Below are positions 4,975 to 20,423 of a stretch of 64,000 nt of DNA, piece after piece (the stretch's first letter is position 1; each line of letters begins with the position of its first letter). The translations under genes and the position numbers were made by a program. The notes beneath the pieces are model-generated. The model searched no databases. It was not told the DNA's origin and saw only the letters and a program-made list of their open reading frames with translations. This DNA comes from Escherichia phage vB_EcoM_Goslar. The stretch lies in sequence record NC_048170.1; one strand, given 5' to 3'.

Positions 4975-7968
4975 ATGAGCGTAACCAACAAAGATCTTGC
5001 TGAACAGCTCAATCGCTATATGCTTTCACCTATTGAAATGCAGGCTGTTGCAAGCGATATGATCCGTTTGGCTTCTGATGGTGAATTAACCCTGGTTGAC
5101 CCCAGCTGTCCGTTTGTTTATCTGCTGGAGGTTGCAACGGCGACGGCGGCGAACCAGAACGCACGGGATGAATCCCGTGTTCGCGAACTGTATCCGAAGC
5201 TCGCAACGAACTGGAACCAGCTCTATCGTTGGATGTATGATGAGTCGTACGTTGGACGTTTCGCAATGCCGGGTAAAACGGAAATCATCTATTCGTTAGG
5301 GTATCAGGAAATCCTCGATCGCGCTGTAGAGATTCCCAACACCATCGCCTCCGATGATTTAAGCCGTTCTTACAGCCGTAAGTTAGTGATACCACGTACG
5401 ACGGCGTTTACGGTGGCTGGAATGGATTTCGGGTTGCATTATCCCATCGAAATCCAAGTACAAGCGCACGACCAGATCCGCGTCGTTTATAACACCGATA
5501 ACATCAGCCCATTGCAAACCTTGGAGAGTAACCAGGTTGAGTACGGGGTTGTTCGTGTAAAAGCGGGTAAAGTGTTGGTGATGCGTATTCCGCTGTTCCA
5601 GTTTAAAACACTGGTAAAAGATGTGCCGTTTAACAGCGTTCACGGGATGAACAGCAGCATTACCTTCGAAGATCAGTTTTACCATTGTCGTGCGTACATG
5701 TCGTCGGATAACGATACCTGGACGGAGATAGCGACAACACACAGTCAGCAGATCTACGATCCGTTAACACCAACCATCGCGTTACAAGTAGAAGGGAACA
5801 AACTTAACTGGCGTGTTCCTGAAATTTATTTGTCTCAAGGTACGATGGATAAAAGCACCATTCGACTTGAGGTGTTGACGACGAAAGGGAAAATCAGCGT
5901 CGACCCGTCTGATTACGACGTGACCGATTGGAAAGATAACTACATCGATTTGTCACCAAAAGCTGAACAGAAATACAGCGCGCCGCTAAGCGCATTCAAC
6001 ATTAAAGGGATTTATAGCGAAGGGGCATTGTCGGGTGGACGATCTGCATTAACGTTCGAGGAACAACGTGAACGTGTTATGGCGGGTGTGAACAAAACCA
6101 AGGTACCGATCACGGGAACGCAGGTAGAGCTGGTGCTTCAAGATGCGGGTTATGGGATGGTGACCACCATCGACAACGTAACCAATCGTTCGTTCCTGGC
6201 AACCCGAGATTTACCGCAATTGAGCGACAGCGTGCCGCAAGCCGGTTCGTTGATGGGGTCTTTCTATACGTCAGCTGCAGCATTGGTGAAAAGTAAGTTT
6301 GTCGCCGATAACGGCGATCGTATTACAATTAAACCTGACTGCCTGTATCGCGACAGTAACGGAAGTATCACGCTGTTGTCGGACGATGAAATTGACCGTA
6401 TTAATGCAGGCAACTCCGATGCGAAGTTGAACGCGGTAAACAACGCCATGTTGTTCTACAGTCCGTTTCATTACGTATTAGATGCAACAAGCGATTTCGA
6501 CATCCATGCTTATTACCTGGATGCCCCTAAGATCGGCACACAAGCATTCCTCGACGCGAACGAGACGATCCCGTTAACCGCTATGGTGACCGGATACCGT
6601 CTGGATCGTATCGCTGAAGGATATCGTCTAAGCCTCATTGTAGAAGGTAACGACGCATGGAAGGCGCTCGACGATAAAAACGTGCACATCCAGCTGGGAT
6701 TCAATCCGCGGGGTGAGGGTGATTATGCGACGATGCTGGCGTCACCGACAACCGATGAACAAGGTCGTCGTTTGTTCACCTTCGATATCACCACGAATTA
6801 CGATTTTACACGAATCCTGGCCGATGATTCCACGGCGTATGAACCGTATATCGCATTGACTTCGTTCTCGATGTATGAATCAACACCGCGGGATTATTGG
6901 GCATCACTGCAGCAGTATTTGGAAATCTTCCATGTGGTGACGGATTACGCGCCTGAAGATGTCGACGGTATCTTACACAGCGCTTCCGATAATTACCTGG
7001 TTAAGAAACTCACGCTTCAAAATGGGTATTGTTTCTACCGTGAACGTCTCACCGCAACCTTTGGTTATGATCTGGATGGTCTTTGGATGCGTTCTCGTAC
7101 GGTGGCCTCGGAGATCACGTATAAACGTTACACCGAGAACATTCCGTGGGTGTATGATGAAGATATCCCAGCGACGGATGAGACCGGTTCTGTTATCATT
7201 GAGCCGGGTGACGATGGTACGTTGTCGGTTAAATATCTGCATCGTAAAGGAGATCCGAAATTAAACAGTGATGGGAGCCAAGCCTATCGTTATCTGAAAG
7301 GCGACATCATGAAAGATAATTACGGTAATCCGATCCCCGTCGATGAACGTGAGGTTCTGCGTAACCTGGATATGTTCTTTATTGATGCATCGTATCTGTT
7401 AGCGAACGATACAGACGTGATTGAGTATCGTAATGCGATTCCTACGCAGCTTATCGAATGGATCCAGAACGATATCGACACGTTCAGGAATTTCTGTTAT
7501 GAAGAAACAGAGATTTCATTGTATCCTAAGCAATCGCTGGGGTATGTGGATGTTATTGTGGAAAACGGATTGGAAACGACGCTTCCTGCTGCCCTATCGT
7601 TCAACGTGACGCTGTACTTACCAGCTAAGCAATACGCTGACCTGGATTTACGTCAGGTCCTTCAAGCGATGGTATCGAAAGTCATCAATGAATGCTTAAC
7701 ATCCCGTACAGTGGCGAAAGCAGAAATGATCGCGATGATTCGTGAGGAGGGCGGTGACGACATCCTTAACGTTGAAATCGATGATTTTGGACCAGGTAAG
7801 AACCTCAGTGTTTATACCGCGAAGAACGATGGTGTTCGTTGTGCGGTGAAGAAAGAGCTTTATGTTAAAGCGGATGGTATCTTGTCCGTACGTGAAGCGA
7901 TCGATGTAAGTTTTGTGAAACATGCACAAAGCAACAGCACAGCGTTAGCGCAAGGCCTCCGTGTCTAA
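4975..7968 (+). CDS. Large hypothetical protein (997 aa), possibly virion structural
   Basis: ORF track; GAGGG RBS 9 nt upstream; starts 4 nt after previous stop. Confidence 0.85.
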   Translation: MSVTNKDLAEQLNRYMLSPIEMQAVASDMIRLASDGELTLVDPSCPFVYLLEVATATAANQNARDESRVRELYPKLATNWNQLYRWMYDESYVGRFAMPGKTEIIYSLGYQEILDRAVEIPNTIASDDLSRSYSRKLVIPRTTAFTVAGMDFGLHYPIEIQVQAHDQIRVVYNTDNISPLQTLESNQVEYGVVRVKAGKVLVMRIPLFQFKTLVKDVPFNSVHGMNSSITFEDQFYHCRAYMSSDNDTWTEIATTHSQQIYDPLTPTIALQVEGNKLNWRVPEIYLSQGTMDKSTIRLEVLTTKGKISVDPSDYDVTDWKDNYIDLSPKAEQKYSAPLSAFNIKGIYSEGALSGGRSALTFEEQRERVMAGVNKTKVPITGTQVELVLQDAGYGMVTTIDNVTNRSFLATRDLPQLSDSVPQAGSLMGSFYTSAAALVKSKFVADNGDRITIKPDCLYRDSNGSITLLSDDEIDRINAGNSDAKLNAVNNAMLFYSPFHYVLDATSDFDIHAYYLDAPKIGTQAFLDANETIPLTAMVTGYRLDRIAEGYRLSLIVEGNDAWKALDDKNVHIQLGFNPRGEGDYATMLASPTTDEQGRRLFTFDITTNYDFTRILADDSTAYEPYIALTSFSMYESTPRDYWASLQQYLEIFHVVTDYAPEDVDGILHSASDNYLVKKLTLQNGYCFYRERLTATFGYDLDGLWMRSRTVASEITYKRYTENIPWVYDEDIPATDETGSVIIEPGDDGTLSVKYLHRKGDPKLNSDGSQAYRYLKGDIMKDNYGNPIPVDEREVLRNLDMFFIDASYLLANDTDVIEYRNAIPTQLIEWIQNDIDTFRNFCYEETEISLYPKQSLGYVDVIVENGLETTLPAALSFNVTLYLPAKQYADLDLRQVLQAMVSKVINECLTSRTVAKAEMIAMIREEGGDDILNVEIDDFGPGKNLSVYTAKNDGVRCAVKKELYVKADGILSVREAIDVSFVKHAQSNSTALAQGLRV

Positions 7969-8030: not shown

Positions 8031-10823
8031 TTATCTTACGTTATTGCTATTCTGCTGTTCGCTGAACCAGCCATACACCTTGAGATCGGTACCGTATTTC
8101 AATGCGATATACGCATTCAGCGCAGCGCAGAACAAAGACGCGAATGCCCATATCAGCGAAGGATCGACGTCTTCCGTTACCACTGGGAGAGTATTATCCG
8201 GTTCCCATGATGGTGAACTGTCCATGAACGTCGCGTACCATCCCCGCCGTTGTTCTTCGGTGGTAAAGTCGCTATGGGGTTCCAATGCTTCTTTTGCCAG
8301 ACGTCGATATTCGAACATATGCGTTGCTAAAGCCGATGAGTTACCAGATTCGCCCTCATAGTTCGGATCCACCGCATAACAGAGTTCTGTTGAATCTAAC
8401 AAAGCAACCGCCTGTGTGATGCTGTCGGCAGTGCCTGCACCATAGAGCTCGATAGACCGCGAAAGCTTTTCACAGAACGCATTTAACGCGGAAGGATTGG
8501 ACACCTGAAGGTCAAGGCCTAATGTCCACGGATAGTTACTGAATACACCCGTAAACCGTGGCATAACACCCAACAGATGCTGTCCGATTACGGCACGGTT
8601 ATAAACAGCCCTGTTATAGACTTGAAGCGCGGCCTCCAGGGCTTGGTTATAATGACGACGAAGCTCGTCACGAGAGTTGCGGAACCTGTTTGCCGCAAGA
8701 CTTGTGGCTGCGACGCTACAAACATCGTAATTGGTGGACGAGAGCACAACCTCGTTAAGATCGAACGCTTCCTGTTTCAATGTTCCGCTAACAGCCGCTG
8801 CTTCGCTGTTCGCTTTATCGACAACTGTACTCAAAGCGTTAATATAACGTTTAGCTCGGACCTCCAACCATTGTGCGATACCGAGAATATCCACCGCAGC
8901 TTTAGCAAGATCACGTGCATTCACGATTTCGTTCTTCAATGCCCCTAAACCTTTATTTTCAGGCGATGAGGCTTGTTGACGAATCATGCTGTTCAACATG
9001 GTAAGCAGATTATCCAACTCATGTCCGCTGACCTTGTTACGTGCATCGGTAATCGGCCCTTGCAGGAATTTACGGCAACCGTCGTTGTATCGAATCAGTT
9101 TATCCACATCGATAGATTCGTTCGTGGATTCCTTGAACTGATCCTTCAATTCTTCACGGTAATCATGGATTTCACTTGCGAGATTATCGATAGTGATACC
9201 ATCATGTCCAAGAAGAACTTTATTGAAGTTACCTTTCTCGAATGCAAGAGTAAGACCTTCACGAATCTTAGCGAGTTTGTCCTGATCAAGTTCACGACCG
9301 TTCGATAGCTCTTTCACTTCCGAGCTGATTAATGCCGAAACGTTACCCAGATTGTCGGTAACCCCTTTGAACGCTCCCGACCAGATCGTTCCTGCTTCAG
9401 CATATTTCGCAATGGTCTGAATACCGACGGTATGTAACGATGCTAAGCGTTTCTTCGTGCCTTCGGTAAGCAGTGCGTCTTTAGCTCGCGTAAGCTGACT
9501 GTTATTAGCTTCCGCCTGCTGAATCGCTGCTTTCGCACTTCCATTACGCCAGCTCTTAACCAGCCAATCAACCAAACGTTTTAGGATATTGACGGTGTAT
9601 TCCATTGTCCGCCGTAACGTTTCCCACGCGCTTTCTGCGGTATAGATGCCGTACCCTTCCATCTTCGTTGGGTCAAAGAAACCTTCCTGCACGAGATCGG
9701 TACGTGTGTAGCCATCAGCAGCTTCTACTTCCGCCTGGGTTTTATCCCAGAAGTCGTCGCTCTTTGCAGCAATCGCTGTATCTTTAACGTCCAGGATGAT
9801 CTGACCAACCGTTTGTGCAAACAGCAAGGCTGCACGTACCGATTGTGCGAACATCCGCTGATATTTGATTCGAACGCATTGCATCTGGGTTAGCAGATTC
9901 AGTTGTGCGATCCCATCCAAGGTGCTATCCTGAGCAAGTCCTTCGGCTTTAGCGATAACCTGTTTTACACGTTCAGCGACATCACCGTACTGCTGGCAAA
10001 CATCCCGCAGAATACGTGCCGCGAAGACCCCGGTACCGATATAGTTCAATAGGTCTTTTAACGACCATTCGGTCGGACAATCGGTCGGCGCAATAGGGAG
10101 TAAGCAACCATCACCGTCCATGAATCTCTCTAATGCGCTAATATCCTGATTTTCTACGCTCATGGGGATATCGACATCAGCCGCTTGCAGATCCAGCATC
10201 TGTTGTAGGATGTTGGTATCGGCTTGTACAAGCGTCGCAAGCGCTTGGCTGTGTGCGATTATTGGTAACGCAGGTGACCATACTGCAGCAAGCTTGTCGG
10301 CGTGACGTTGAATGGCATACCCCATATCCTCGATCACATCGGGATGCTCGATAACCCCCTGAAGCGTTTGATGTAGCTCACCGAGTTGCTGAGACAGATC
10401 GACCATCATGGTGTTGAAGGTTTCGTCATCCTCTTTGTGGTTGTCCAGACGCTCGAGTTCATGTCGAAGCAATGTAACGAGCTGTCCGTTGCCTTCTTGC
10501 TTCAGCTTGCTTTCCATTAACGTAATGGCTTTATCGACGATCTGACACGCTTCACGAAAACCGGTTGTGGAAGGAAGCTCTGTCCATAACGCCAGCGGTT
10601 TACCGTCAAGGGCTTCCGGCATCGATAACGAAAGCATAGACAGTTGTTGACGTGATACTTGCTGTTCACGGTGTAATGTTTCTTTTAACGCCAGGAGATC
10701 GTCAAGAAACGCGCCGTTAAGGGTGGTCGTACGTGGTGTTGAATTAATACCGTCAGTTAACGATTCAAGCACCAGGAGACCGTTATCAGCTGAAGAGAGT
10801 CCCGCGGCAAGATATTTGTTCAT
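8031..10823 (-). CDS. Large hypothetical protein (930 aa)
   Basis: ORF track; start MNKYLAAG sits 12 nt downstream of a hairpin. Confidence 0.85.
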   Translation of the reverse strand: MNKYLAAGLSSADNGLLVLESLTDGINSTPRTTTLNGAFLDDLLALKETLHREQQVSRQQLSMLSLSMPEALDGKPLALWTELPSTTGFREACQIVDKAITLMESKLKQEGNGQLVTLLRHELERLDNHKEDDETFNTMMVDLSQQLGELHQTLQGVIEHPDVIEDMGYAIQRHADKLAAVWSPALPIIAHSQALATLVQADTNILQQMLDLQAADVDIPMSVENQDISALERFMDGDGCLLPIAPTDCPTEWSLKDLLNYIGTGVFAARILRDVCQQYGDVAERVKQVIAKAEGLAQDSTLDGIAQLNLLTQMQCVRIKYQRMFAQSVRAALLFAQTVGQIILDVKDTAIAAKSDDFWDKTQAEVEAADGYTRTDLVQEGFFDPTKMEGYGIYTAESAWETLRRTMEYTVNILKRLVDWLVKSWRNGSAKAAIQQAEANNSQLTRAKDALLTEGTKKRLASLHTVGIQTIAKYAEAGTIWSGAFKGVTDNLGNVSALISSEVKELSNGRELDQDKLAKIREGLTLAFEKGNFNKVLLGHDGITIDNLASEIHDYREELKDQFKESTNESIDVDKLIRYNDGCRKFLQGPITDARNKVSGHELDNLLTMLNSMIRQQASSPENKGLGALKNEIVNARDLAKAAVDILGIAQWLEVRAKRYINALSTVVDKANSEAAAVSGTLKQEAFDLNEVVLSSTNYDVCSVAATSLAANRFRNSRDELRRHYNQALEAALQVYNRAVYNRAVIGQHLLGVMPRFTGVFSNYPWTLGLDLQVSNPSALNAFCEKLSRSIELYGAGTADSITQAVALLDSTELCYAVDPNYEGESGNSSALATHMFEYRRLAKEALEPHSDFTTEEQRRGWYATFMDSSPSWEPDNTLPVVTEDVDPSLIWAFASLFCAALNAYIALKYGTDLKVYGWFSEQQNSNNVR

Positions 10824-10838
10824 AAAACACTCCGTTGG

Positions 10839-10869
10839 CCTAGGGGAAGGTTTTCAGCCTTCCCCTAGG
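10839..10869 (-). terminator. Stem-loop (CCTAGGGGAAGG / CCTTCCCCTAGG) between tandem minus-strand genes; terminator or attenuator
   Basis: 12-bp perfect inverted repeat; followed on the minus strand by GTTTTAT and then the next start codon. Confidence 0.5.
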
Positions 10870-10882
10870 GTTATAAACACAA

Positions 10883-13687
10883 TTAAGCTAATTTACCGAA
10901 ACCGGCTTTCTGCAGTTTCTCGTTGATGATTTTCGCTTCAGCGAAGACGTAATCGCGGTAGGCGGTCACTAACGCATCCACACGTGAACGCAAGGCTTCT
11001 TCGAAGCTATACCACGCAGCGATTTCACGAATCTGTGCGTTGATATAATCAACGGTTGAGCGAAGCTCGGTTGCGTTTTCCTGCGGGATGGCTTTCACCT
11101 GGCGAGCAACGTCATTTAAACGACGGAACTGTGTTTCGATTTCTTTAAACTTATTGTCGGCAAGTTTGCTGAATTCGTCACCAGAACGGGTAAATAACAG
11201 ATAGCTGTTGCCATCAAGTGCGGTCGCTAACTGCTGAAGTACGTTGGTGTCCGGATACACAGGAGTACCGCTTTGCAGTACCTTCTCACCGAATTCCGCG
11301 AAGTCCTTCGGTGGTAAGTGCGCAGACGTTGTCAACTCGTTGAAACGGAAAGTCAGCGAACTATCATACAACATCCGGTACGCTTCCATACCCTGCTTCA
11401 TGGTGCCAGCCAGGTTGGCCAGACGCGGAGCAATCTCACCCTCTTTAGCGCGTTTCTGGTCTTCTAACGCCCCTTCGAGTTCTTTACACTGGTCGTTCAG
11501 ATACACGATACGATCGGGACGCAGACGACGCATCTCACGAAGAATGGTATCCAGCTTACCTTCCTGGAAATAACCTAGCGTTAAAGACGTACACGCTTGC
11601 TGAAGACGATCGAACACCGGTAAGGTTACCATCTCCTTACGGATACCATCAACAATCGCAGAAACAGCCGAAAGTTTCTGTTCTGTCGTTAATGGAACAT
11701 CAGAGACCGACTTGCTGGGCGCACCAACAACGTTACGCATTGCGTCGGTATCCTCGGTTTTATCAACCTCTTTACGAACATGCTCATCAGGAACATAAAC
11801 GTTCGCATTACGTTTCGCCTGCTTGATGGCATCGTTGGCCGCTTTTTCGGTGGCTGCTACGCTATCGGCACGTTTCTTCAAGAGTTCAATAATCCAGAGC
11901 ACCAGACGACGAATCGCAGTATAGGCCGTCGTGATGATGACACCGATAACAGCCATCTTCATGATACCGAACGATTCCATGGTCGGCTCTAATGCCTGGT
12001 CTGGCATATAGCGTTCACGCAGCTCCAGATAGATCTGCTCATCCGGTTTGCTGATCTCGCCACGATGCGAAGTCCGATAGATGGCTTCGTCAATCTCAAC
12101 AAGATCTTTGCGTGCCTGACGGTCTGTTTCGGTCAAATAAGCGCAGCCGGATACGTCGTCTTCAAAACTTTCGAACTTAAAGAAATCGACAACCATCTTG
12201 GCAAGCGCCTCTTTCTTAGCAGGATCGAGTGTCTTCGCATCTTCTTTTTGCTTATCCATTTTTTCCTTGAATTTCTCTTTGTAGTCATTCAAGGGTTTTA
12301 CCGCTCTTGCTTTCAACGCGTTATAGATAGCTTTCCACTCATCGTTACGTTCGAGGACAATGAAATGGTTTTTGAGTTCGAAAGCGCGATAGCGTGCAAC
12401 GAGCTGTTCTACCTGAATATGAGCGAGTTGGATATCCATTAACCAACGCGACATCGCCGAGATCAAACGGCTATAAGCGAACAACGTTTGGTAGGTTAAC
12501 TTCATGTATGTTTCATACAGCTCAATATCGCCGCTCTGAATATTGGCTGTTGGATTCATTTCCTTTGTTGCCTTGAAGACCTGTTCTGCTTCTCTCAGCG
12601 TCTTTTCGAACTTAACGTCATTAAACGCAGTGAATGGTTCAGCCAACTCATGCATTTTATCGTGGAGTTCGCGGATCCAAGCTTCCTTGCTGTCGCGGAT
12701 GGTGTTTTCATCATGGAGCACGGTTTGATGTTTTCGTACCCATTCTTCCACGATATCAGCAGCGGAAACAATCGGAACGCGATCTGAAATGAGCGGGACG
12801 ATCGTGTGAAGCGCCCCGACACATTCTGGCGTGTCCCAGTGTTTCTGGAGTTCATCACGGAAACGGTTAATGTTTTCTAAGGTGGTACCTAAATCAAGGA
12901 AAGTGCCGCCATTATGACTCATCTGTGCAACCAGATCGGCAAATACCTTTTGTTTTTCGATGACAAAAGGAACCATCCGCATAAGCCATTCAGCAGTTGC
13001 TTTAGCCTTTTCTTTCAGGTTCTTATCGGCGATTTCTTTAAGGTTAATCGCGCTACCGTATCCTGCAAGTTCGTTGTAGACGTCGTTAACCGTCATCTCT
13101 TTATCCAACATTTCTTTGAAACGTGGATAATCTGCACCTAACGCGTCGATGACTTCTTGGATGATGTCGTCTGTGGTAGCGATAAATTTATTTGTGCCGC
13201 CGTAATGGTTCCAGATTTTCTGTAGCGTCTTCTTAAAGAATTCGAAGACGAATGTCCAGATACGCTTAATGAGTTCCCAGACTTTCTTCGCACCATCGAC
13301 AAACAGTTTAGAGACTTTGGCAACGAATCCTTCCTGCACCAACTCAACGCCGTTACGTGATGGAATTTCGGTGAAGAAAGCATCTGGCAGTTGTTTCGGG
13401 AACGCGTCACCAAGACGCATACGCAATTCGGGTACATCGGCACGAGAAATACCGCGCGTCGTTAACTGCTCGTGAAGACGAACGTTTTCTTCACCAGAGG
13501 CTACGAATTCGTTAACGTCAAATGACACCAGTTCTTGATCTTCGGTGGTGACGACGCTTGAACCATCACTGGTTTGGATGTCTTCGTCAGGGAATGCCAT
13601 GAGCATACCGTGACGCATTTCAACCACTCCGTAATCGGTTGCTAAACCGAATTCGTTGTGATCGGGGGTAATAACTGGGATACTCAT
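10883..13687 (-). CDS. Large hypothetical protein (934 aa), helical/charged, one hydrophobic segment
   Basis: ORF track. Confidence 0.85.
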   Translation of the reverse strand: MSIPVITPDHNEFGLATDYGVVEMRHGMLMAFPDEDIQTSDGSSVVTTEDQELVSFDVNEFVASGEENVRLHEQLTTRGISRADVPELRMRLGDAFPKQLPDAFFTEIPSRNGVELVQEGFVAKVSKLFVDGAKKVWELIKRIWTFVFEFFKKTLQKIWNHYGGTNKFIATTDDIIQEVIDALGADYPRFKEMLDKEMTVNDVYNELAGYGSAINLKEIADKNLKEKAKATAEWLMRMVPFVIEKQKVFADLVAQMSHNGGTFLDLGTTLENINRFRDELQKHWDTPECVGALHTIVPLISDRVPIVSAADIVEEWVRKHQTVLHDENTIRDSKEAWIRELHDKMHELAEPFTAFNDVKFEKTLREAEQVFKATKEMNPTANIQSGDIELYETYMKLTYQTLFAYSRLISAMSRWLMDIQLAHIQVEQLVARYRAFELKNHFIVLERNDEWKAIYNALKARAVKPLNDYKEKFKEKMDKQKEDAKTLDPAKKEALAKMVVDFFKFESFEDDVSGCAYLTETDRQARKDLVEIDEAIYRTSHRGEISKPDEQIYLELRERYMPDQALEPTMESFGIMKMAVIGVIITTAYTAIRRLVLWIIELLKKRADSVAATEKAANDAIKQAKRNANVYVPDEHVRKEVDKTEDTDAMRNVVGAPSKSVSDVPLTTEQKLSAVSAIVDGIRKEMVTLPVFDRLQQACTSLTLGYFQEGKLDTILREMRRLRPDRIVYLNDQCKELEGALEDQKRAKEGEIAPRLANLAGTMKQGMEAYRMLYDSSLTFRFNELTTSAHLPPKDFAEFGEKVLQSGTPVYPDTNVLQQLATALDGNSYLLFTRSGDEFSKLADNKFKEIETQFRRLNDVARQVKAIPQENATELRSTVDYINAQIREIAAWYSFEEALRSRVDALVTAYRDYVFAEAKIINEKLQKAGFGKLA

Positions 13688-14124
13688 GCATTCTCTCCTT
13701 GCAGTGCGTTAGCGAAAGCTGTTGCGAGCTGCGCAACCAGTTTCGGATCAACGCCTTCGATAACGTCAGGCAGCCCTGCGGTTTCTTGGTCACGAACAGC
13801 GGAGGCTAATAACAGCATGGTTTCAGGCGCGGTTGGCTCATGCACCATGCGGTAACGCAGGCACCAGAAGTAGCGGGCAACGTCTAACGCATCAGCCAGC
13901 CCAATAACCAGCACCTTGTTCAGTTTATCCAACCCGTCACGGATTTTAGGGAGATGTTCACGAACGAAGATGCTATCCGCAGTCAGATCTTCTTTTTCAG
14001 CGAATACCGGCATGCTGTAACCGGCGATGTAACCTGCGGCAATACTTAACGCGCGGGTCTGTTGTTCGGCTGGGAAGTCACGTACCAGGTCTTTCAGCTG
14101 AACGGCGAAATCAGAAATATTCAT
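13684..14124 (-). CDS. Hypothetical protein (146 aa)
   Basis: ORF track; 4-nt overlap with downstream gene. Confidence 0.75.
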   Translation of the reverse strand: MNISDFAVQLKDLVRDFPAEQQTRALSIAAGYIAGYSMPVFAEKEDLTADSIFVREHLPKIRDGLDKLNKVLVIGLADALDVARYFWCLRYRMVHEPTAPETMLLLASAVRDQETAGLPDVIEGVDPKLVAQLATAFANALQGENA

Positions 14125-14157
14125 GTTAAATTCCTTTATAGTAAAAAATAGAAGAGA

Positions 14158-15468
14158 TTAGGCGATAATGGAATCAAGAGTCGCTGCTGTTTTGAACAGA
14201 TCGCTGTTCATTGTAGAAGAAAGGACTTGCTGAATTTCTTCCTGTTTAACGGCTTTACGAACTCCAGGACGAAGGATAAGCGTAACCATCTGCATAAATG
14301 TACGGTTGTTGTTCATCGCGCTTAACGTTTCATCAATTGTTTTGATGGTATCTAACGTAGTGGAGCGTATGTCGCTAGGGAGGTCACGATCTTTCAGACG
14401 TATAATCAAATCTTGTTTGATTTTTCTGAATCGTTCCATATCGTTGTCATAGATGCTGTATGTCGGATCTAACCAAACTGCAAGCGCCATAGCAGCAACA
14501 AATATTGCCATACCAAGAATATTAACCGAGGTGAAGCTGATCGCTATCAAAATTGTCACGGCTGCATCTTTAATGAAGGAGAGCCAGAACATCGTTTTGG
14601 ACTTCATGGAGTTGGTGCCATAAAGCCGAAACATTTTAGCAAGCCCGCTAACGAGATACTCCCCACTGCCGTGACGTGTAGCGAACTGATCGGCCATGAA
14701 TTCGGAAGCAACGTCGGTATATCGTCCAGCGTTGTTTACATTTCTTAACTGCATCGCTTTGTTAGACACGTAAACCGTGTACCAGACACTACCATCGTCT
14801 GAATCACTGATTTTATTTACGTCGACGTTAGTATCTAGCGTTTTGTTTAACGCTTTCGCCAGTTCGATACGTTTTACCTTATCGGTTGTTCCCAACAGTT
14901 CGCGCTGCACGGTCATGATTGAGGCTTCGACACGAACCGTTTCCGACAATGTTTCAAGGAAAGTAAACGCATGACCGATTTCATGCAGCATTATGGCTGC
15001 TTTTTCTTCCGGAAGAAAGGGTTCTGTCGCTGTTAGCAATTCATACGTGATGGCAGAACGAATCTTCAACTCCTCAAAAATACCGTAAACGCGACCTTTT
15101 TCTAAATCGACGTAACCGACAGGTGCATCTTTAATCTTCTTAAGAAGTGCGACACCATCGACACCACGCATCCATAATCGATGATAGTCTGCCAATATCG
15201 CGTTGTTTGTTGAAATATCCGGCGGGTACACGTAGGCATTCATCTGGCCCATTTTCACGTCAACCGAAAATTCGATGTTCAACCCCGTATAGCGTTTAAC
15301 CATCTCGGTTAAACGACCGTCCTTGAAAACGTTTAAAACCTCTTTTTTATCCAGTCCCTGTTTGCTTCTGAAGAACTCGGTCATTTCCTTGAACAAGGAA
15401 CCATCCTGAAACTTGATGGCCTCCATCGTTAATTCGTCATGACCATACACGCGTTGTAGTAATGACAT
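14158..15468 (-). CDS. Putative membrane-anchored zinc metallopeptidase (M48/M56-like HExxH ... ExxADxxA)
   Basis: HEIGH motif, downstream EFMADQFA motif, hydrophobic helices about residues 285-330. Confidence 0.55.
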   Translation of the reverse strand: MSLLQRVYGHDELTMEAIKFQDGSLFKEMTEFFRSKQGLDKKEVLNVFKDGRLTEMVKRYTGLNIEFSVDVKMGQMNAYVYPPDISTNNAILADYHRLWMRGVDGVALLKKIKDAPVGYVDLEKGRVYGIFEELKIRSAITYELLTATEPFLPEEKAAIMLHEIGHAFTFLETLSETVRVEASIMTVQRELLGTTDKVKRIELAKALNKTLDTNVDVNKISDSDDGSVWYTVYVSNKAMQLRNVNNAGRYTDVASEFMADQFATRHGSGEYLVSGLAKMFRLYGTNSMKSKTMFWLSFIKDAAVTILIAISFTSVNILGMAIFVAAMALAVWLDPTYSIYDNDMERFRKIKQDLIIRLKDRDLPSDIRSTTLDTIKTIDETLSAMNNNRTFMQMVTLILRPGVRKAVKQEEIQQVLSSTMNSDLFKTAATLDSIIA

Positions 15469-15689: not shown

Positions 15690-17189
15690 ATGAGCGAACA
15701 AGAACGAAAACCTAAGAAGAAACTGCTCGGTATTCAATGTCGACACATCAGCTATAACGAAGCGAACGATGGCAGCAAGAACGACCTCATGATCGCAAAA
15801 GAGATCATGTTCTTTGATGATAATACGCAAGCGACGAACCTTCGCTTCTTTGAGAATTACAAACGTCCGTTTTGGGTGACAGTAGAGAGTAAACGTAAGA
15901 ACAAATATAAAAAGGAAAGCGAGAAGCTGTCACATGTGCGACGCTACGATGTCCGTCAAAGTGAACTGGTTGAAAAGATCAGTTCGGTGCTTTATAAAAG
16001 ACGTGCCGATGATAACACCCGTTTACAGCAGCTTGCACGGAGTCCATACCTCTATGGAACGGACGTTAGCGCCAGCTGTTATTTAAAAACCCAATACAAT
16101 ACAAAATGGCCGGAATACGTCGATAAATTACCCGCTTCTATCGCCTGTTTCGATATCGAAACTGACGTTGTCCATGGACACGGTAAGATCGTCTGTATGT
16201 CTATTACAATGGGATACAATGCGATACTTTGCTATACCAAGGACTTCGTTGGTCATATTCCGAATGCGATTGAGAAAACTCATGAGAAGATTCGATATTA
16301 TCTGGCCGAACGTCTGAATACCAAAGAAGATCCTCACGCGTTCGAAAAATATCATTACGATGTGCGAATCGTAGAAAGTCCGGCACAAGCGGTCATCCAA
16401 TGCATGCAAAAGGTTCACGAATGGCAGCCGGATTATCTCCTCGGCTGGAATATCGCGTTCGATATTCCGCGCATGCTCCAGGCACTGAACGAGGAAGGGT
16501 ATCGTCCCGAGGATGTTTTCTCCGATCCTCGTGTACCACCTAAATATCGTATTGCTCGCTGGGTACCACCGAAGACCGACAAGGTATCTGCTTCAGGTCG
16601 TAAAACCAACCTTACCCTCGAGCAGACCTGGCCGATGTTTTATACGATGGCTACGTATCAGGTTATGGATGCGATGTGTGGCTATAAGTTCGTTCGTTTA
16701 GGAAGACCGGATGAAGGACGCTATTCACTCGATGCGGTATTAGAGCGAAATAAATGCCATACGAAATTAAAAGCGATTCCTGGTACAGAAGGGTTCACGG
16801 AGCTTGCGTGGCACGAAGAAATGCAAACGAACCATCAAATCGACTACGGCGTATATAACCTTTGGGATAACCAAGGCATCGAGGCGTTGGACCAGAAAAC
16901 AAAAGACTATTCGATGACCATCCCTATCCGTTTAGCGGCGTCGGATTTGAAAGATTTCAGTTCTAACCCTAAACGTATCTGCGATAAACTTTTCTTCGTT
17001 TATCTTAACCGTGGGGAAGTCATGGGATGCACCGCCGACGACATGACCCAGGAAGAAGATAAGTGGGTTATCTCACGAACCGGACATATCGTCACATTAC
17101 CATGCGATCTCATGGCGGACAACGGCATTCATCTCTTCTGGGATATGCCTAATTTAAGGAGCTATATTCGATTATTTGTTGCGGATTAA
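15690..17189 (+). CDS. Family B DNA polymerase (E. coli Pol II-like) 3'-5' exonuclease domain; ORF ends before the polymerase palm motifs
   Basis: Exo I CFDIETD, Exo II GWNIAFDIPRML, Exo III YNLWD in canonical order and spacing; no motif A/B/C in this ORF. Confidence 0.7.
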   Translation: MSEQERKPKKKLLGIQCRHISYNEANDGSKNDLMIAKEIMFFDDNTQATNLRFFENYKRPFWVTVESKRKNKYKKESEKLSHVRRYDVRQSELVEKISSVLYKRRADDNTRLQQLARSPYLYGTDVSASCYLKTQYNTKWPEYVDKLPASIACFDIETDVVHGHGKIVCMSITMGYNAILCYTKDFVGHIPNAIEKTHEKIRYYLAERLNTKEDPHAFEKYHYDVRIVESPAQAVIQCMQKVHEWQPDYLLGWNIAFDIPRMLQALNEEGYRPEDVFSDPRVPPKYRIARWVPPKTDKVSASGRKTNLTLEQTWPMFYTMATYQVMDAMCGYKFVRLGRPDEGRYSLDAVLERNKCHTKLKAIPGTEGFTELAWHEEMQTNHQIDYGVYNLWDNQGIEALDQKTKDYSMTIPIRLAASDLKDFSSNPKRICDKLFFVYLNRGEVMGCTADDMTQEEDKWVISRTGHIVTLPCDLMADNGIHLFWDMPNLRSYIRLFVAD

Positions 17190-17257
17190 CCTTCGTTCTG
17201 TAAAAGTTTACTTCATGTAAGAATCGTGTGCGGCATAAGAGAGGCCGATACATCTAG

Positions 17258-18469
17258 ATGTTACATGAGGTTTACGAGATGGAAAAATCTATACATACTC
17301 AAACTGGAACTATTGACTATCGCGATTCAGCATATTTGCCGTACACAAATCATCGTTATCGTATATTTGAAGATGGCGAGTTGTACGACTATAAAGAAGA
17401 TAGGGTCGTCCCTTACGAAGTTGTAGACGGTGTCCCTTATGTTGAAATCGATTGGTATAGAGGCATTGGAAAATACGATCTCGGTATGATCATTCTCACC
17501 GTTCTTGAACGGGTTGCTTTACCAGATCACCTTTACGATGAAATTGAATCGTTGTTTGTGGACGGAGATCCGACTAACTTTTCGTATAGCAATCACATCT
17601 ACCGTTTCCGTAATGGGCCGTTAGAAGTTGAGGGATTCGAAGGTTATTGTTATATTCCGTTTGCATCTCGTTACGCGATAAATAAAGAAGGACATTGTAT
17701 TAGTCTTCTTTCGTTGGATCCTATCACGTGGACGAAAACGGTTCAGCAAGGCACACGTCTTGGCGGATACGCTTATCGTAAAGTGGTTCCCGACAGCGGG
17801 TTTACACCGCAGTTATATCGTCACCGAGCTATCATGTTAGCGTTTACGAGATATGATGCTAACGTTGTGAACTTAACTGTAAATCATAAAAACGGAATTA
17901 AAGGTGACGATTGGTTTGACAACCTCGAATGGGCGACATATGCCGAGAACAATCAACATGCTCGTATGGCAGGGTTGTGTATAGGTACGTCAAAACCTGT
18001 TTTGGTTTATGATTACCGTGCACGAATCGAACGTCGTTTTAATAGTATCGCAGAAGCGGAACGTGCTTATCCGTACGTGCCGAAAGGACGTTTCAAATGG
18101 TGGGTAAACAATCCTCCGAAACGTATCCCAGAATGCGATTTATACATCAAGTTTGCCACGGACAATACGCCTTGGCCGGAGTGGAAACTTGGAGAAGATC
18201 GTCGTGTCGAGGACACCGACGGTCGCGGTATTCTCGCTATTAATAAAGAGACGAACGAACGACATGTGTTTCCATCAGTAACTGCTGCCGCAAATGCGTT
18301 AGGAATCTCCTGGATTACCGTAAGACGTCATTGCGATCGTCGTGCAGTACCTACGAAACAGCCTTGGTGTTTTCGTTACGCTGATGATATCGCTGCCATG
18401 CCTGATTTCGATGTTAATAAATTAGTTCCTAAGAAGAAGCGTGTATTTAATGTCCCATTAGAACGATAA
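17258..18469 (+). CDS. HNH homing endonuclease (403 aa)
   Basis: HNH motif LTVNHKNGIKGDDWFDNLEWATYAENNQHA; AGAGAGG RBS; location between polymerase gene segments. Confidence 0.8.
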   Translation: MLHEVYEMEKSIHTQTGTIDYRDSAYLPYTNHRYRIFEDGELYDYKEDRVVPYEVVDGVPYVEIDWYRGIGKYDLGMIILTVLERVALPDHLYDEIESLFVDGDPTNFSYSNHIYRFRNGPLEVEGFEGYCYIPFASRYAINKEGHCISLLSLDPITWTKTVQQGTRLGGYAYRKVVPDSGFTPQLYRHRAIMLAFTRYDANVVNLTVNHKNGIKGDDWFDNLEWATYAENNQHARMAGLCIGTSKPVLVYDYRARIERRFNSIAEAERAYPYVPKGRFKWWVNNPPKRIPECDLYIKFATDNTPWPEWKLGEDRRVEDTDGRGILAINKETNERHVFPSVTAAANALGISWITVRRHCDRRAVPTKQPWCFRYADDIAAMPDFDVNKLVPKKKRVFNVPLER

Positions 18470-18504
18470 CAGGTCCCCCTACTTGTAATGAGTGGGTGAA
18501 CTCT

Positions 18505-18905
18505 CTTTAATTGCTGGAAACCTTTAATGCCCCTCCACACCACAACGCAATCCGAAAGGGTAAACGTGATGGTTGTCGAAAGACAGAAAAAAGTTGGAGG
18601 GGATTACCTATGTTGCAATAAAAGCCACCGCTTTCTTGGATAACGAAAGATGACGGTGGTACTAAGGGTAGAAGATAGAAATAAGGTAACCGTAGCAGCG
18701 AAGACCCTACGGACTGTCGTGACCGACTCGATGAGTTGGCGTGGTTAACACGGACAGGCTACGGGTAACGTTCAACGACCATCCGGTTGCGCGGAGTAGG
18801 AGAATTAGGATGTTCTCTGAAAAGGGAGAAGTCGGTCGAGGTGTTGTAGAAACACCATTCGGTTTGCTAACGCAAACCTAAGGCAGGCTAAGATATGGTC
18901 TATTT
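18505..18905 (+). ncRNA. Candidate group I intron catalytic core (P-, Q-, R-, S-like elements)
   Basis: R-like GTTCAACGACCA (~18770) and S-like AAGATATGGTC (~18890) with a compensatory P7 pair (GACCA/UGGUC versus consensus GACUA/UAGUC); P-like AATTGCTGGAAA (~18509); Q-like AACCGTAGCAGC (~18687); several hairpins; no ORF on either strand. Confidence 0.5.
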
Positions 18906-18948
18906 TTCGTTGTGTTCATGTATAGAAATTACTGAACCATCGTAAGAG

Positions 18949-19203
18949 CTCGATATATCTTCAAGCTATCCAAATGGGCAGATACTGCTCAATCTATCCA
19001 GAGCATGTGTTTTTCGTGAGCTCTCACGCATTGAGGGCGTCTCTGACTATCAATTCAGGAAGCTAGGTATCAACTTTATCACTGGAGGTAAAACGAACGC
19101 TGTAGACTTCTGTAGAATCGTTTATAAAGCGCCATCGATGTTTGAACTTTTAGAACATTTCGATGCGACGCGTCCAAAAGAGGAAGCGCGGACCATCGAA
19201 TGA
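18949..19203 (+). CDS. Candidate downstream exon: start-less open frame with polB motif-A-like sequence (LDISSSYPNGQ), stop at 19201-19203
   Basis: 86-codon open frame with no start codon until its last 21 codons; DISSSYP resembles DxxSLYPS; joining after 17186 to 18949 would be in frame and obey U at the 5' splice site and G at the intron 3' end. Confidence 0.3.
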   Translation, partial: LDISSSYPNGQILLNLSRACVFRELSRIEGVSDYQFRKLGINFITGGKTNAVDFCRIVYKAPSMFELLEHFDATRPKEEARTIE

Positions 19204-19288: not shown

Positions 19289-19774
19289 TTATGCGCGTTC
19301 GTTGCCAACCGTTACTTTGTAGTCAGCGTCGGTTAAGAAAATAGACAGGAATCCATGTTCTTTGCAAATCTTACTAAGGATGTCAGCAATGATTTCGTTG
19401 ATCATCGGCTTGTTTGCAAGGGCATAGATGTACCCGGGTGTAAAAGAAAGTGCGTGATTGATCATAGGCTCATGAGAAGCCAAGATAAGGATCACGTGAT
19501 GCTTCCCATCGTCGGTAACGACCGCTTGCGTAGACACGAAGAAATCAGTGAAGCAGCAGCGATCACAGGCTTTAGGTATATACAAGTCACCCAGAGCTTC
19601 GTCACGTGCTTTTACGTGTGTTTCAGGGGTAATGCTGCTAAGTTGATCTTCAGCGAGATCCAAGACATCCTCAATCGTTTTAAGAATAGCGTTGCGGAAA
19701 TCCTCACGGTAGAATGGGATGATATCACGATCGTTCATGTAATCGCCGGATTCGATAGTAAAGTTGATGTTCAT
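19289..19774 (-). CDS. Hypothetical small protein (161 aa)
   Basis: ORF track; terminator immediately downstream; preferred over the overlapping + strand ORF 19355..19777. Confidence 0.75.
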   Translation of the reverse strand: MNINFTIESGDYMNDRDIIPFYREDFRNAILKTIEDVLDLAEDQLSSITPETHVKARDEALGDLYIPKACDRCCFTDFFVSTQAVVTDDGKHHVILILASHEPMINHALSFTPGYIYALANKPMINEIIADILSKICKEHGFLSIFLTDADYKVTVGNERA

Positions 19775-19884
19775 TGAATGCTCCTAGTGGTTATGTCGAT
19801 TGATTGATGTGTTAATTTATGTTTGATGGGGTATACTTGAAACTACAAATAAGGCTCTTGGCGTTGCTGTTATGGTTCAGTTCT

Positions 19885-20334
19885 TTATCCCTTGTTGGAT
19901 TCGTCAATATACTTGGTGTCGTAAGACAAATGCTGAATTAATTTTCTAGGTCTGATGAAAATACGACATGTGATAAACACATCGGGATCGTATTGTTCCA
20001 CGCAACGTCCGAAGGCTCGTTTTGCGGACTGACGCATCAAGGCTAATTCCTGATCGTTCATCTCATCATCAAATTCGATGAGTATTGTTATTTTATCGGG
20101 AAATAAATAGATAGAGTAATCGCTACCGATATCACCGTCGTCAAAACGATAATCGTTGTGGTAATGGCGGAGCTTACCTTCGTGCTCCGCCTGGTACCAC
20201 CCGACGATACTATCAAGGCCCATACCCAGGCGTCCGAATGCCTGATTAATAATATCATCAACGACGGATGCAGGTGTGGGGCCATTGAATAATCTATCCA
20301 GACATTTTTTCATCGATTTGGTTTTCACGTTCAT
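19885..20334 (-). CDS. Hypothetical small protein (~149 aa; probable start at the second Met, MNVKTK)
   Basis: ORF track 19885..20361; AGGAAAAG RBS before the internal ATG. Confidence 0.7.
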   Translation of the reverse strand: MNVKTKSMKKCLDRLFNGPTPASVVDDIINQAFGRLGMGLDSIVGWYQAEHEGKLRHYHNDYRFDDGDIGSDYSIYLFPDKITILIEFDDEMNDQELALMRQSAKRAFGRCVEQYDPDVFITCRIFIRPRKLIQHLSYDTKYIDESNKG

Positions 20335-20363
20335 TGTTTCTTTTCCTGTTATAGTCAACATAT

Positions 20364-20398
20364 AGCCCTTCCCCGGCCTTGACGGCTAGGGAAGGGGC
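20364..20398 (-). terminator. Stem-loop (AGCCCTTCCCC / GGGAAGGGGCT) between tandem genes
   Basis: Inverted repeat read directly. Confidence 0.5.
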
Positions 20399-20423
20399 TA
20401 GGTACGTTATTTATGCTTCATTA

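What the first reader, a model, noticed from the sequence alone, without database searches (positions are those of the whole stretch)
14158..15468. Membrane-anchored M48-like zinc metallopeptidase next to two ~930-aa proteins
HEIGH followed by EFMADQFA matches the HExxH...ExxADxxA arrangement of HtpX/Ste24-type peptidases, and there are hydrophobic helices in the C-terminal third. A phage-encoded membrane metallopeptidase beside very large proteins could process injected or structural proteins, or target host envelope proteins.
Basis: partly seen in the sequence, partly recalled or inferred. Interest (0 to 1): 0.45.

Follow-up and report, generated by a model that had tools for sequence, protein, structure and literature searches.

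The report
Jumbo-phage head M48-like zinc peptidase
This gene encodes the local copy of a zinc-protease-like protein that phiKZ-type giant phages package in their heads; the protease fold was already noted in the literature, its job is still unknown, and in this phage lineage the gene is swapped between near-identical genomes as a very divergent cassette.

Summary
Window 14158-15468 (-) encodes a 436-aa protein with HEIGH (162-166), EFMADQFATRHG (256-267) and a 45-residue hydrophobic stretch (292-336).

It is the orthologue of phiKZ gp84 and SPN3US gp45, a conserved head protein of phiKZ-like jumbo phages (phrog_2767; 3,710 50%-identity representatives).

The idea is not new. Iyer et al. 2021 described exactly this family as an uncharacterised zincin-like metallopeptidase, and a few records call homologues 'peptidase' or 'zincin protease'.

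Nothing supports processing of the two ~930-aa neighbours.

My best reading, inferred rather than shown, is a packaged enzyme whose short N-terminal propeptide is removed by the prohead protease. It would then be ejected and insert into the host membrane by its hydrophobic hairpin.

One unexpected result: in near-isogenic relatives (flanking proteins 98-99.8% identical) this gene is only 48-78% identical. The cassette boundaries are sharp and dS is saturated, so divergent alleles are exchanged horizontally.

Verdict: new member of a known kind, moderate interest.

The parts
14158..15468 (-). 436-aa gp84/gp45-family head protein with an M48-like zinc-metallopeptidase core
15421..15468 (-). Predicted N-terminal propeptide (residues 1-16, MSLLQRVYGHDELTME), ending at the prohead-protease-type site T-M-E|A
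   Evidence: E16 aligns with E20 of SPN3US gp45, where cleavage at ASE-20 by gp245 was shown by mass spectrometry (PMC5694885, PMC10052503). A [SAGT]-x-E motif occurs in the first 45 residues of 168 of 195 representatives. Cleavage of this particular protein is inferred, not shown.
14971..14985 (-). HEIGH zinc-binding and catalytic motif (residues 162-166)
   Evidence: Coordinates verified. Invariant H, E, G and H in alignment A1. HExGH is present in 195 of 195 representatives. The motif aligns with ZMPSTE24 HELGH and E. coli HtpX HEISH.
14668..14703 (-). EFMADQFATRHG, the helix carrying the predicted third zinc ligand (E256) and the M48-type E-x-x-A-D signature (residues 256-267)
   Evidence: Coordinates verified. 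E256, D260, F262, R265 and G267 are invariant. The profile aligns this stretch with ZMPSTE24 residues 412-444, [12 protein letters not shown].... E222, A225 and D226 are invariant in E. coli HtpX, BepA, LoiP and YcaL.
14461..14598 (-). Hydrophobic helical hairpin (residues about 291-336), the candidate membrane-insertion element
   Evidence: Kyte-Doolittle segment 292-336. Model helices 291-313 and 316-332. A hydrophobic span after residue 230 occurs in 189 of 195 representatives, median length 38 aa. It is the most sequence-variable part of the protein.
14130..15392 (-). Exchangeable divergent cassette: the coding region for the mature peptidase from about codon 26 to just past the stop codon
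   Evidence: DNA identity to relative L012 is 95-100% on both sides. It falls to 33-67% between about 15392 and 14217, is 80-83% from 14216 to 14097, and is 88-98% from 14096 on. dS is 2.2 inside the gene against 0.09-0.22 in the flanking genes.
13684..14124 (-). 146-aa ORF in the position of phiKZ gp85 (in phiKZ, a dimeric inner capsid vertex protein)
   Evidence: Position conserved in phiKZ, PA02, SPN3US and PCH45. Weak hit to phrog_30916 at E 7.5e-6. No BLASTP similarity to phiKZ gp85, so the equivalence rests on position only. phiKZ gp85 role from PMC11297242.
10883..13687 (-). 934-aa ORF, first of two genes in the hypervariable gp86/gp47 slot
   Evidence: ORF. No match in the phage collection. 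One hydrophobic segment at 574-597. 85-99.6% identical among near-isogenic relatives.
8031..10823 (-). 930-aa ORF, second gene in the hypervariable slot
   Evidence: ORF. Not a paralogue of the 934-aa ORF. C-terminal hydrophobic segment at 889-908. 63-99.5% identical among relatives, some of which have versions of about 1200 aa.
4975..7968 (+). 997-aa homologue of phiKZ gp87 (baseplate wedge protein), which closes the conserved block
   Evidence: 33% identity over the full length to phiKZ gp87. phrog_3248 at E 1e-287. The gp87 role is from the phiKZ virion atlas (PMC13250141).

Best explanation
Identity (high confidence, about 0.9). The gene encodes this phage's orthologue of phiKZ gp84 / SPN3US gp45, a conserved head protein of phiKZ-like (chimallivirus-type) jumbo phages. 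Its domain order is:
- a short N-terminal propeptide (1-16);
- a small helical segment (17-62);
- an M48-type gluzincin catalytic core (about 63-285), with HEIGH supplying two zinc ligands and the catalytic base, and E256 of EFMADQFA supplying the third ligand;
- a hydrophobic helical hairpin (about 291-336);
- a C-terminal helical domain (337-436).

Mechanism (inferred, about 0.35-0.4).
1. The protein is made late and targeted into the prohead.
2. Its propeptide is removed after E16 by the serine prohead protease, as shown for SPN3US gp45.
3. It is stored in the head at tens of copies and leaves with the DNA at infection.
4. Outside the capsid, the hairpin inserts into the host inner membrane or the early-infection vesicle derived from it. 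This places the zinc peptidase domain at the membrane.
5. There it cleaves host or co-ejected proteins in a step needed for productive infection.

The enzyme chemistry is under strict purifying selection. The rest of the protein, above all the hairpin, is free to diverge and is exchanged between related phages as a cassette, as expected for a host-facing component.

Shown here or in cited work: sequence, motifs, conservation, predicted fold, virion location and N-terminal processing of homologues, and allele exchange. Inferred: catalysis, ejection, membrane insertion and the substrate.
For: Fold and active site:
- The family profile hits ZMPSTE24 at E 0.006, with both the HExxH and the EFxADxFA stretches aligned.
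- Pfam Peptidase_M48 matches 19 of 29 family members, best E 2.5e-5.
- hhalign against E. coli HtpX/BepA/LoiP/YcaL gives probability 85% over the HExxH helix.
- 195 of 195 representatives keep HExGH and E-x-x-(A/C)-D.

Head protein with a propeptide:
- phiKZ gp84 is annotated 'structural head protein'.
- SPN3US gp45 is a head protein processed at ASE-20 by gp245. Its SC/M is 2.99, against 1.29 for the 12-copy portal and 6.39 for the 264-copy tail tube (PMC5694885, PMC10052503).
- The cleavage-site Glu is conserved here.

Probably important: phiKZ orf84 has 0 disruptive transposon insertions, while the downstream orf85-86 can be deleted. A polar effect on them therefore does not explain the result (PMC12676376).

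Not part of the ordered shell or tail: gp84 is absent from the phiKZ capsid model and from the 40-protein virion atlas (PMC11297242, PMC13250141).

Host-facing behaviour:
- A hydrophobic hairpin is present in 189 of 195 representatives.
- The gene is 48-98% identical among genomes whose polymerase and gp85-position genes are 97-100% identical.
- dS shows horizontal replacement.
- The protein at the neighbouring slot in SPN3US (gp47) has a transmembrane helix and is needed for infectivity but not for assembly (PMC5694885).
Against: - No experiment shows zinc binding, proteolysis, ejection or membrane association for any member of the family.
- The window protein itself scores below the Pfam M48 gathering threshold (11 bits against 20.3). 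Foldseek with the whole model found no significant PDB match, and hhalign aligned only 30 columns.
- gp84 was not among the injected or interacting phiKZ proteins named in the early-infection-vesicle study, although that study did not test it.
- An estimated tens of copies per head is high for a pure enzyme.
- The phiKZ proteins at the adjacent positions (gp85, gp86) are fixed to the inner capsid surface rather than ejected (PMC11297242). The same could be true of gp84 if it is disordered or sub-stoichiometric there.
- Cassette exchange also affects small accessory genes in this genome, so by itself it does not prove host interaction.
Confidence: 0.5

Rival explanations
1. Auxiliary maturation protease. 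The enzyme acts inside the prohead, alongside the serine prohead protease, and cuts other head or inner-body proteins during capsid maturation. This is the suggestion of Iyer et al. 2021.
For: - It is a head protein with an intact, universally conserved metallopeptidase site.
- phiKZ-type heads undergo extensive proteolysis (PMC7824862, PMC10052503).
- The propeptide could keep the enzyme targeted or latent until the prohead stage.
- phiKZ orf84 tolerates no disruptive insertions.
Against: - The 14 cleavage sites mapped in nine SPN3US head proteins all follow a Glu and are attributed to gp245, and about 80% of SPN3US head proteins are not cleaved at all (PMC10052503). No second specificity was reported.
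- A conserved hydrophobic hairpin has no obvious use in a lipid-free capsid.
- An allele only 48.5% identical works with unchanged head proteins, which is easier to reconcile with a substrate outside the head.
Confidence: 0.2
2. Membrane-bound assembly factor in the producing cell. The hairpin anchors the newly made protein in the inner membrane, where chimallivirus capsids start to assemble, and the protein is then carried into the head.
For: - The hydrophobic hairpin is conserved.
- From my own knowledge (not checked here), capsids of phiKZ-like phages assemble at the cell membrane before moving to the phage nucleus.
- T4-type prohead initiation uses membrane-associated factors, mentioned in PMC7824862 for gp40.
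Against: - The mature virion protein still contains the hairpin, because only about 16-20 N-terminal residues are removed (PMC5694885). The protein would therefore have to be pulled out of the bilayer to enter the head.
- This reading gives no role for the strictly conserved catalytic residues.
Confidence: 0.1
3. Structural pseudo-enzyme. It is a minor capsid or inner-body component that keeps an old peptidase fold but no longer cleaves anything.
For: - Mid-range abundance in SPN3US virions (SC/M 2.99; PMC5694885).
- The genes at neighbouring positions encode structural vertex proteins in phiKZ (PMC11297242).
- No activity has been reported.
Against: All three zinc ligands, the catalytic Glu and the M48-type Asp are kept in 195 of 195 representatives, across a family that has otherwise diverged to about 20% identity. 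Pseudo-enzymes normally lose such residues.
Confidence: 0.08

Closest known systems
phiKZ gp84 (PHIKZ084) / SPN3US gp45 / SEGD1_047 (AMR59696.1): the 'conserved, uncharacterized zincin-like metallopeptidase' of group 1 jumbo phages (Iyer et al. 2021, PMC7824862); phrog_2767
   Same: - Full-length homology at 25-27% identity, E about 1e-23.
- Same length class and same motifs.
- Same N-terminal cleavage-site Glu.
- Same genomic position, between the DNA polymerase and the gp85 / gp86-slot / gp87 block.
   Different: - Very divergent in sequence; nothing in the phage collection exceeds 30% identity.
- The adjacent slot holds two ~930-aa genes instead of one of 422-573 aa.
- In this lineage the gene exists as at least two deeply divergent exchangeable alleles, which had not been described.
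MEROPS family M48: Ste24/ZMPSTE24 (M48A), HtpX (M48B), BepA/YcaL/LoiP
   Same: - HExxH followed about 80-95 residues later by E-x-x-A-D on a second helix.
- Best structural matches are all M48.
- Association of the catalytic domain with hydrophobic helices, as in HtpX, Ste24 and Oma1.
   Different: - Weak sequence similarity, below the Pfam threshold for this protein.
- Different architecture: the catalytic core precedes a single hydrophobic hairpin and a helical C-terminal domain. There is no seven-helix chamber (Ste24), no N-terminal transmembrane pair (HtpX) and no TPR domain (BepA).
- The spacer between the two motifs is longer (90 residues here, against 79 in HtpX).
- It is packaged in a virus particle and has a prohead-protease-cleaved propeptide.
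Bacillus phage AR9 'Zincin protease' proteins and metagenomic Myoviridae 'Peptidase M48 domain-containing' proteins (BFVD)
   Same: Significant predicted-structure similarity (Foldseek E 9e-8 to 2e-4) over most of the length, similar size (about 320-425 aa), and a jumbo or large myovirus context.
   Different: Only 12-17% identity and TM-scores of about 0.4-0.5. They are distant relatives at best, and orthology was not tested.
SPN3US gp47, an essential head ejection protein with a transmembrane helix
   Same: A head protein carrying a hydrophobic helix and a prohead-protease-cleaved N-terminal propeptide, encoded two genes downstream of gp45 in the same block, and proposed to act on the host membrane after ejection (PMC5694885).
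   Different: No sequence similarity and no peptidase motif. Its ejection-type phenotype is backed by an amber mutant, whereas no comparable data exist for the gp45/gp84 family.

Membership tests
MEROPS M48 / Pfam PF01435 Peptidase_M48 | HExxH zinc-binding motif on an alpha-helix | tested here: met
   HEIGH at 162-166 lies inside predicted helix 153-192. It is invariant in alignment A1 and in 195 of 195 representatives.
MEROPS M48 / Pfam PF01435 Peptidase_M48 | Third zinc ligand Glu on a downstream helix within an E-x-x-A-D signature, about 75-95 residues after HExxH | tested here: met
   E256-F-M-A-D260 lies 90 residues after H166, in helix 252-283. It aligns with ZMPSTE24 E415-F-Q-A-D and with invariant E222/A225/D226 of the E. 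coli M48 paralogues. It is kept in 195 of 195 representatives, six of them with Cys in place of Ala.
MEROPS M48 / Pfam PF01435 Peptidase_M48 | Profile score above the curated family threshold | tested here: not met
   The window protein scores 11 bits (E 0.38) against a cutoff of 20.3. Family-wide, 19 of 29 members match at E<=1, best 2.5e-5. The relationship is therefore real but remote, and membership in the curated Pfam family is not established for this sequence.
MEROPS M48 / Pfam PF01435 Peptidase_M48 | Three-dimensional fold of the M48 catalytic domain | tested here: met
MEROPS M48 / Pfam PF01435 Peptidase_M48 | Zinc-dependent peptidase activity | not testable with these tools
   I found no biochemical data for any family member in the searchable literature.
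phiKZ gp84 / SPN3US gp45 head-protein family (phrog_2767) | Full-length sequence homology | tested here: met
   phrog_2767 at E 2.6e-79, covering 12-432 of 436 residues. BLASTP to phiKZ gp84 gives E 6e-23 and to SPN3US gp45 E 2e-23. tblastn finds 249 jumbo-phage records.
phiKZ gp84 / SPN3US gp45 head-protein family (phrog_2767) | Conserved genomic position: divergent from the DNA polymerase gene and upstream of the gp85 position, the variable slot and the gp87 baseplate gene | tested here: met
   The same order is seen in phiKZ, PA02, SPN3US, SEGD1 and PCH45 and in the window.
phiKZ gp84 / SPN3US gp45 head-protein family (phrog_2767) | Short N-terminal propeptide ending in (S/A/G)-x-E, cut by the prohead protease | tested here: inconclusive
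   The Glu is conserved and aligned with the mapped SPN3US site ASE-20. Here the site reads T-M-E, with Thr at P3, a variant found in 31 of 168 motif-bearing representatives. Cleavage itself cannot be tested here.
phiKZ gp84 / SPN3US gp45 head-protein family (phrog_2767) | Presence in the virion head | not testable with these tools
   Shown by mass spectrometry only for homologues (PMC5694885, PMC10052503; phiKZ record note).
MEROPS M56 (BlaR1/MecR1 sensor peptidases), considered | Closest structural or profile match to BlaR1-type domains, with the peptidase domain embedded between transmembrane helices of a signal sensor | tested here: not met
Prohead maturation serine protease (T4 gp21 / phiKZ gp175 / SPN3US gp245 type), considered | Homology to the herpesvirus/T4-type serine protease | tested here: not met

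The most novel reading that the evidence does not exclude
The protein is an ejected, membrane-inserting M48 protease that acts in the first minutes of infection at the host inner membrane or the early-infection vesicle. It might open or remodel that membrane, or destroy a host envelope or defence protein. Because the host sees or resists it directly, phages of one lineage keep and trade deeply divergent alleles of it. That would make it the first enzymatic component linked to the membrane stage of nucleus-forming phage infection.
Probability: 0.17. Interest if true: 0.7.

Novelty: new member of a known kind. Interest (0 to 1): 0.35.

Why it matters
phiKZ-like jumbo phages are models for the phage nucleus and candidates for therapy. 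How their DNA and injected proteins cross and reshape the inner membrane in the first minutes of infection is an open question.

This family has several features that make it worth testing in that context:
- It is present across the phiKZ-like jumbo phages searched (249 records).
- It appears to be required in phiKZ.
- It sits in the head.
- It keeps a complete metalloprotease site together with a membrane-type hairpin.
- No function has been assigned to it.

That makes it a concrete, testable candidate for a step in the early membrane stage. The finding that it is exchanged as a divergent cassette between otherwise near-identical Salmonella-associated jumbo phages gives a natural pair of alleles for such tests. 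It also suggests pressure from the host.

If the protein turns out only to trim head proteins, or to be structural, the result is routine annotation.

Tried and rejected
- Direct PDB sequence search with the single protein: no hit.
- afdb50 fold search: library unavailable.
- hhalign against four E. coli M48 proteins: aligned only the HExxH helix (30 columns, probability 85%), probably because of the long insert between the motifs.
- Megablast of the 10.5-kb neighbourhood against the phage collection: no match, so the phage is not in that collection.
- The two ~930-aa ORFs: not paralogues. The 934-aa ORF has no homologue in the phage collection by tblastn (the 930-aa ORF was not searched there). 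PHROGs gave only a weak tape-measure hit for the 934-aa ORF and none for the 930-aa ORF. Neither shows BLASTP similarity to phiKZ gp86 or SPN3US gp47. I could not say what they are.
- Idea that the peptidase processes its neighbours: rejected as unsupported (see the interpretation verdict).
- Literature searches for phiKZ gp84, PHIKZ084 and chimallivirus + M48 found no functional study.
- The Thomas 2012 phiKZ proteolysis paper is not held.
- The supplements of the PCH45 Tn-seq paper and of Iyer et al. 2021 are not held.
- dN/dS gave no sign of positive selection averaged over the gene (0.06-0.21). The divergence is explained by recombination, not by rapid in-place evolution.
Full report
**1. 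The observation**

The minus-strand ORF at 14158-15468 is real and encodes 436 residues. HEIGH lies at residues 162-166 and EFMADQFATRHG at 256-267; translating nt 14971-14985 and 14668-14703 confirms both. There is one long hydrophobic stretch, residues 292-336.

The two large ORFs mentioned in the title are at 10883-13687 (934 aa) and 8031-10823 (930 aa) on the same strand. A 146-aa ORF (13684-14124) separates them from the peptidase gene. The gaps and overlaps between these four genes are small (33 nt, a 4-nt overlap, 59 nt), so they probably form one transcription unit. That is my inference from the coordinates.

**2. What the gene is**

The protein matches phrog_2767 ('unknown function') end to end at E 2.6e-79. 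By tblastn it finds 249 jumbo-phage records from Pseudomonas, Erwinia, Salmonella, Vibrio, Serratia, Ralstonia and other hosts, all below 30% identity. Many are annotated 'virion structural protein'.

The phiKZ homologue is PHIKZ084 (gp84), noted as 'structural head protein'. The SPN3US homologue is the gene beside the DNA polymerase, which is gp45 in the SPN3US literature.

Gene order is shared with phiKZ. The window ORFs at 1156-7968 are homologues of phiKZ gp91, gp90, gp89, gp88 and gp87, and the polymerase next door is the phiKZ gp82 homologue. Elsewhere the window carries a multisubunit-RNA-polymerase beta-subunit gene, tail and tail-fibre genes and a DNA ligase.

The nearest relatives are contigs of 237-248 kb in Salmonella enterica assemblies and sequencing runs. 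The region has no nucleotide match in the phage collection.

An exhaustive profile search finds 3,710 representatives (50% clusters) at E<=1e-3 and 1,793 at E<=1e-30. Almost all of the best 150 are 400-455 aa long and match over their full length.

**3. Is it an M48-type metallopeptidase?**

Sequence evidence for the single protein is weak: Pfam Peptidase_M48 gives E 0.38 and 11 bits, against a cutoff of 20.3. The family-level evidence is consistent.

- In a 29-member alignment reaching about 20% identity, H162, E163, G165, H166, E256, D260, F262, R265 and G267 are invariant. phiKZ gp84 and SPN3US gp45 keep them too.
- Among 195 representatives, every one has HExGH and E-x-x-(A/C)-D, 83-99 residues apart.
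- The family profile hits human ZMPSTE24 (E 0.006). It aligns both 'EEiaAilLHEIGH' with 'EEVLAVLGHELGH' and 'sEflADqFAtRhGaGrdLvtaldKlnk' with '[27 protein letters not shown]'.
- 19 of 29 members hit Pfam Peptidase_M48, best E 2.5e-5.
- The same H-E-H...E-A-D positions are the invariant columns of E. coli HtpX, BepA, LoiP and YcaL. hhalign against that alignment gives probability 85%, but only across the HExxH helix.
- Whole-chain Foldseek against the PDB found nothing significant, because the long helices dominate.

I conclude that the catalytic core is a remote M48-type gluzincin. The protein works like an M48 enzyme as far as sequence and predicted fold can show. It does not reach the curated Pfam threshold, so I do not file it as a formal member.

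**4. Architecture**

The model and the alignments give this order:

| Residues | Element |
|---|---|
| 1-16 | disordered N-terminus |
| 17-62 | helical segment |
| 63-141 | mixed beta subdomain |
| 153-192 | HExxH helix |
| 193-250 | helical insert |
| 252-283 | Glu helix |
| 291-313, 316-332 | two hydrophobic helices |
| 343-435 | helical C-terminal domain |

The hydrophobic span is present in 189 of 195 representatives. Its median length is 38 residues, which fits a hairpin rather than a single membrane pass. Its sequence is not conserved.

**5. What is known about the homologues**

- SPN3US gp45 is a head protein found by mass spectrometry. It is cut after ASE-20 by the prohead protease gp245. 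Its spectral-count/mass value is 2.99, against 1.29 for the 12-copy portal and 6.39 for the roughly 264-copy tail tube, which suggests tens of copies (PMC5694885; PMC10052503).
- That Glu aligns with E16 here (T-M-E|A-I-K-F-Q). A [SAGT]-x-E motif near the N-terminus occurs in 168 of 195 representatives.
- The SPN3US authors count gp45 among seven cleaved head proteins conserved in related phages, and state that the phiKZ homologues are all cleaved.
- In phiKZ transposon sequencing, orf84 has no disruptive insertion. The downstream orf85-86 also lack insertions but can be deleted (PMC12676376). A polar effect on those genes therefore does not explain the orf84 result, and orf84 itself is probably needed. 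This last step is my inference.
- The study of the phiKZ early-infection vesicle does not mention gp84.

**6. Prior recognition of the fold**

Iyer et al. [quoted passage not shown]

AMR59696.1 is SEGD1_047, the gene beside the polymerase in a SPN3US-species phage. It is 25% identical to the window protein at E 8e-25.

One GenBank record (Erwinia phage AH06) labels its homologue 'peptidase'. The viral structure library contains more distant structural relatives named 'Zincin protease' (Bacillus phage AR9) and 'Peptidase M48 domain-containing protein'.

No functional study turned up.

**7. An unexpected feature: an exchangeable cassette**

I fetched six related contigs that carry this block. 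Protein identities to the window are as follows.

| Protein | Identity to window |
|---|---|
| Polymerase exon 1 | 97.6-99.8% |
| gp85-position protein | 97.9-99.3% |
| Peptidase | 98.4, 95.6, 94.0, 91.7, 78.4 and 49.8% |
| 934-aa protein | 85-99.4% |
| 930-aa protein | 63-99.5% |

Against the contig with the 49.8% allele (L012), DNA identity is 95-100% down to window position about 15393. It is 33-67% from there to about 14217, 80-83% from 14216 to 14097, and 88-98% from 14096 on.

In that comparison dS is 2.2 inside the gene and 0.09-0.22 in the four flanking genes. For the 78% allele, dS is 1.6 against 0.4-0.7 for the polymerase and gp85-position genes. The divergent alleles were therefore imported by recombination and did not evolve in place.

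dN/dS for the peptidase (0.06-0.21) is higher than for the polymerase (0.00-0.02) but well below 1.

The first 33 residues (the propeptide plus 17 more) are identical in all seven genomes. The hydrophobic hairpin is the most variable part, at 12%, 43% and 61% identity in three relatives in which the HExxH region is 47%, 92% and 100% identical.

Both allele classes keep the catalytic residues, and both are common in the database: six clusters at 78-98% identity and 22 at 48-49%. The two large neighbours recombine independently of the peptidase.

**8. How it most likely works**

*Shown.* This is a conserved head-protein family with an intact M48-like site, a conserved hydrophobic hairpin, a conserved prohead-protease site (cleaved in SPN3US), apparent requirement in phiKZ, and cassette-like allele exchange in this lineage.

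*Inferred.* The protein is targeted to the prohead and trimmed at E16. It is stored inside the head without being part of the ordered shell and is released with the DNA. It is then anchored by its hairpin in the inner membrane or the membrane of the early-infection vesicle, where the peptidase domain cuts a host or co-injected protein.

I prefer this reading for four reasons.
- A membrane-type hairpin has no evident use in a lipid-free capsid.
- Every mapped SPN3US head cleavage is accounted for by gp245.
- A 48%-identical allele functions with unchanged head proteins, which is easier to reconcile with a substrate outside the head.
- Exchange of divergent alleles is the pattern usually seen in host-facing phage proteins. 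Ali et al. (PMC5694885) made the same argument for the neighbouring gp47 slot.

I put this mechanism at about 0.35-0.4. I put the maturation-protease rival at about 0.2, a membrane-bound assembly role at about 0.1 and an inactive structural protein at below 0.1.

**9. Verdict**

The gene is a new, divergent member of a known and already flagged family whose function is still open. The cassette exchange is a modest new observation that points to host interaction and offers a practical experiment.

Noticed in passing
window 15690-19203 (+); intron about 17183-18966: The DNA polymerase gene (phiKZ gp82 homologue) is split. Exon 1 ends at about 17186 and the coding sequence resumes at about 18946. 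The insertion of about 1.76 kb carries an HNH/NUMOD1 endonuclease ORF (17258-18469) and a group I intron core (Rfam RF00028, 18405-18923, 44.7 bits, just under the gathering score of 50, E 1.4e-9). A close relative (L014) has an uninterrupted 583-aa polymerase. Other relatives have a different HNH gene (about 42% identical, 368 aa) between the same two polymerase exons.
   Followed up: partly
window 8031-13687 (-): The two ~930-aa ORFs in the gp86/gp47 slot have no detectable homologues outside this phage group (the 934-aa ORF was searched by tblastn; neither hits PHROGs convincingly) and are not paralogues of each other. Each has one hydrophobic segment. Each recombines independently among near-isogenic relatives (85-99.6% and 63-99.5% identity), and some relatives have versions of 1200-1205 aa in place of the 930-aa ORF. 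Serratia phage PCH45 also has two genes (348 and 460 aa) in this slot.
   Followed up: partly
window 19289-22622 (-): This is a run of six small ORFs (141-210 aa) with no PHROG match. Four of them are only 72-88% identical to their counterparts in relatives whose core genes are about 99% identical; the 210-aa and 141-aa ORFs are 97-99% identical. It is a second variable accessory region, next to the polymerase.
   Followed up: no
protein P0183 (839 aa) from the representative search: One family member carries the complete gp84-type module at residues 409-836, behind about 400 extra N-terminal residues. This is either a natural fusion or a mis-called ORF.
   Followed up: no
window 34887-38861 (-): This 1324-aa ORF matches 52 different PHROG tail-fibre families in many separate stretches, so it looks like a highly mosaic, repeat-rich tail-fibre protein.
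   Followed up: no
window 14158-15468 (-), residues 1-33: The first 33 codons of the peptidase gene are identical at the protein level in all seven related genomes, and the 5' breakpoint of the divergent cassette falls in or just after this stretch in both divergent alleles. The segment may be a backbone-specific capsid-targeting sequence, or simply a recombination anchor.
   Followed up: partly
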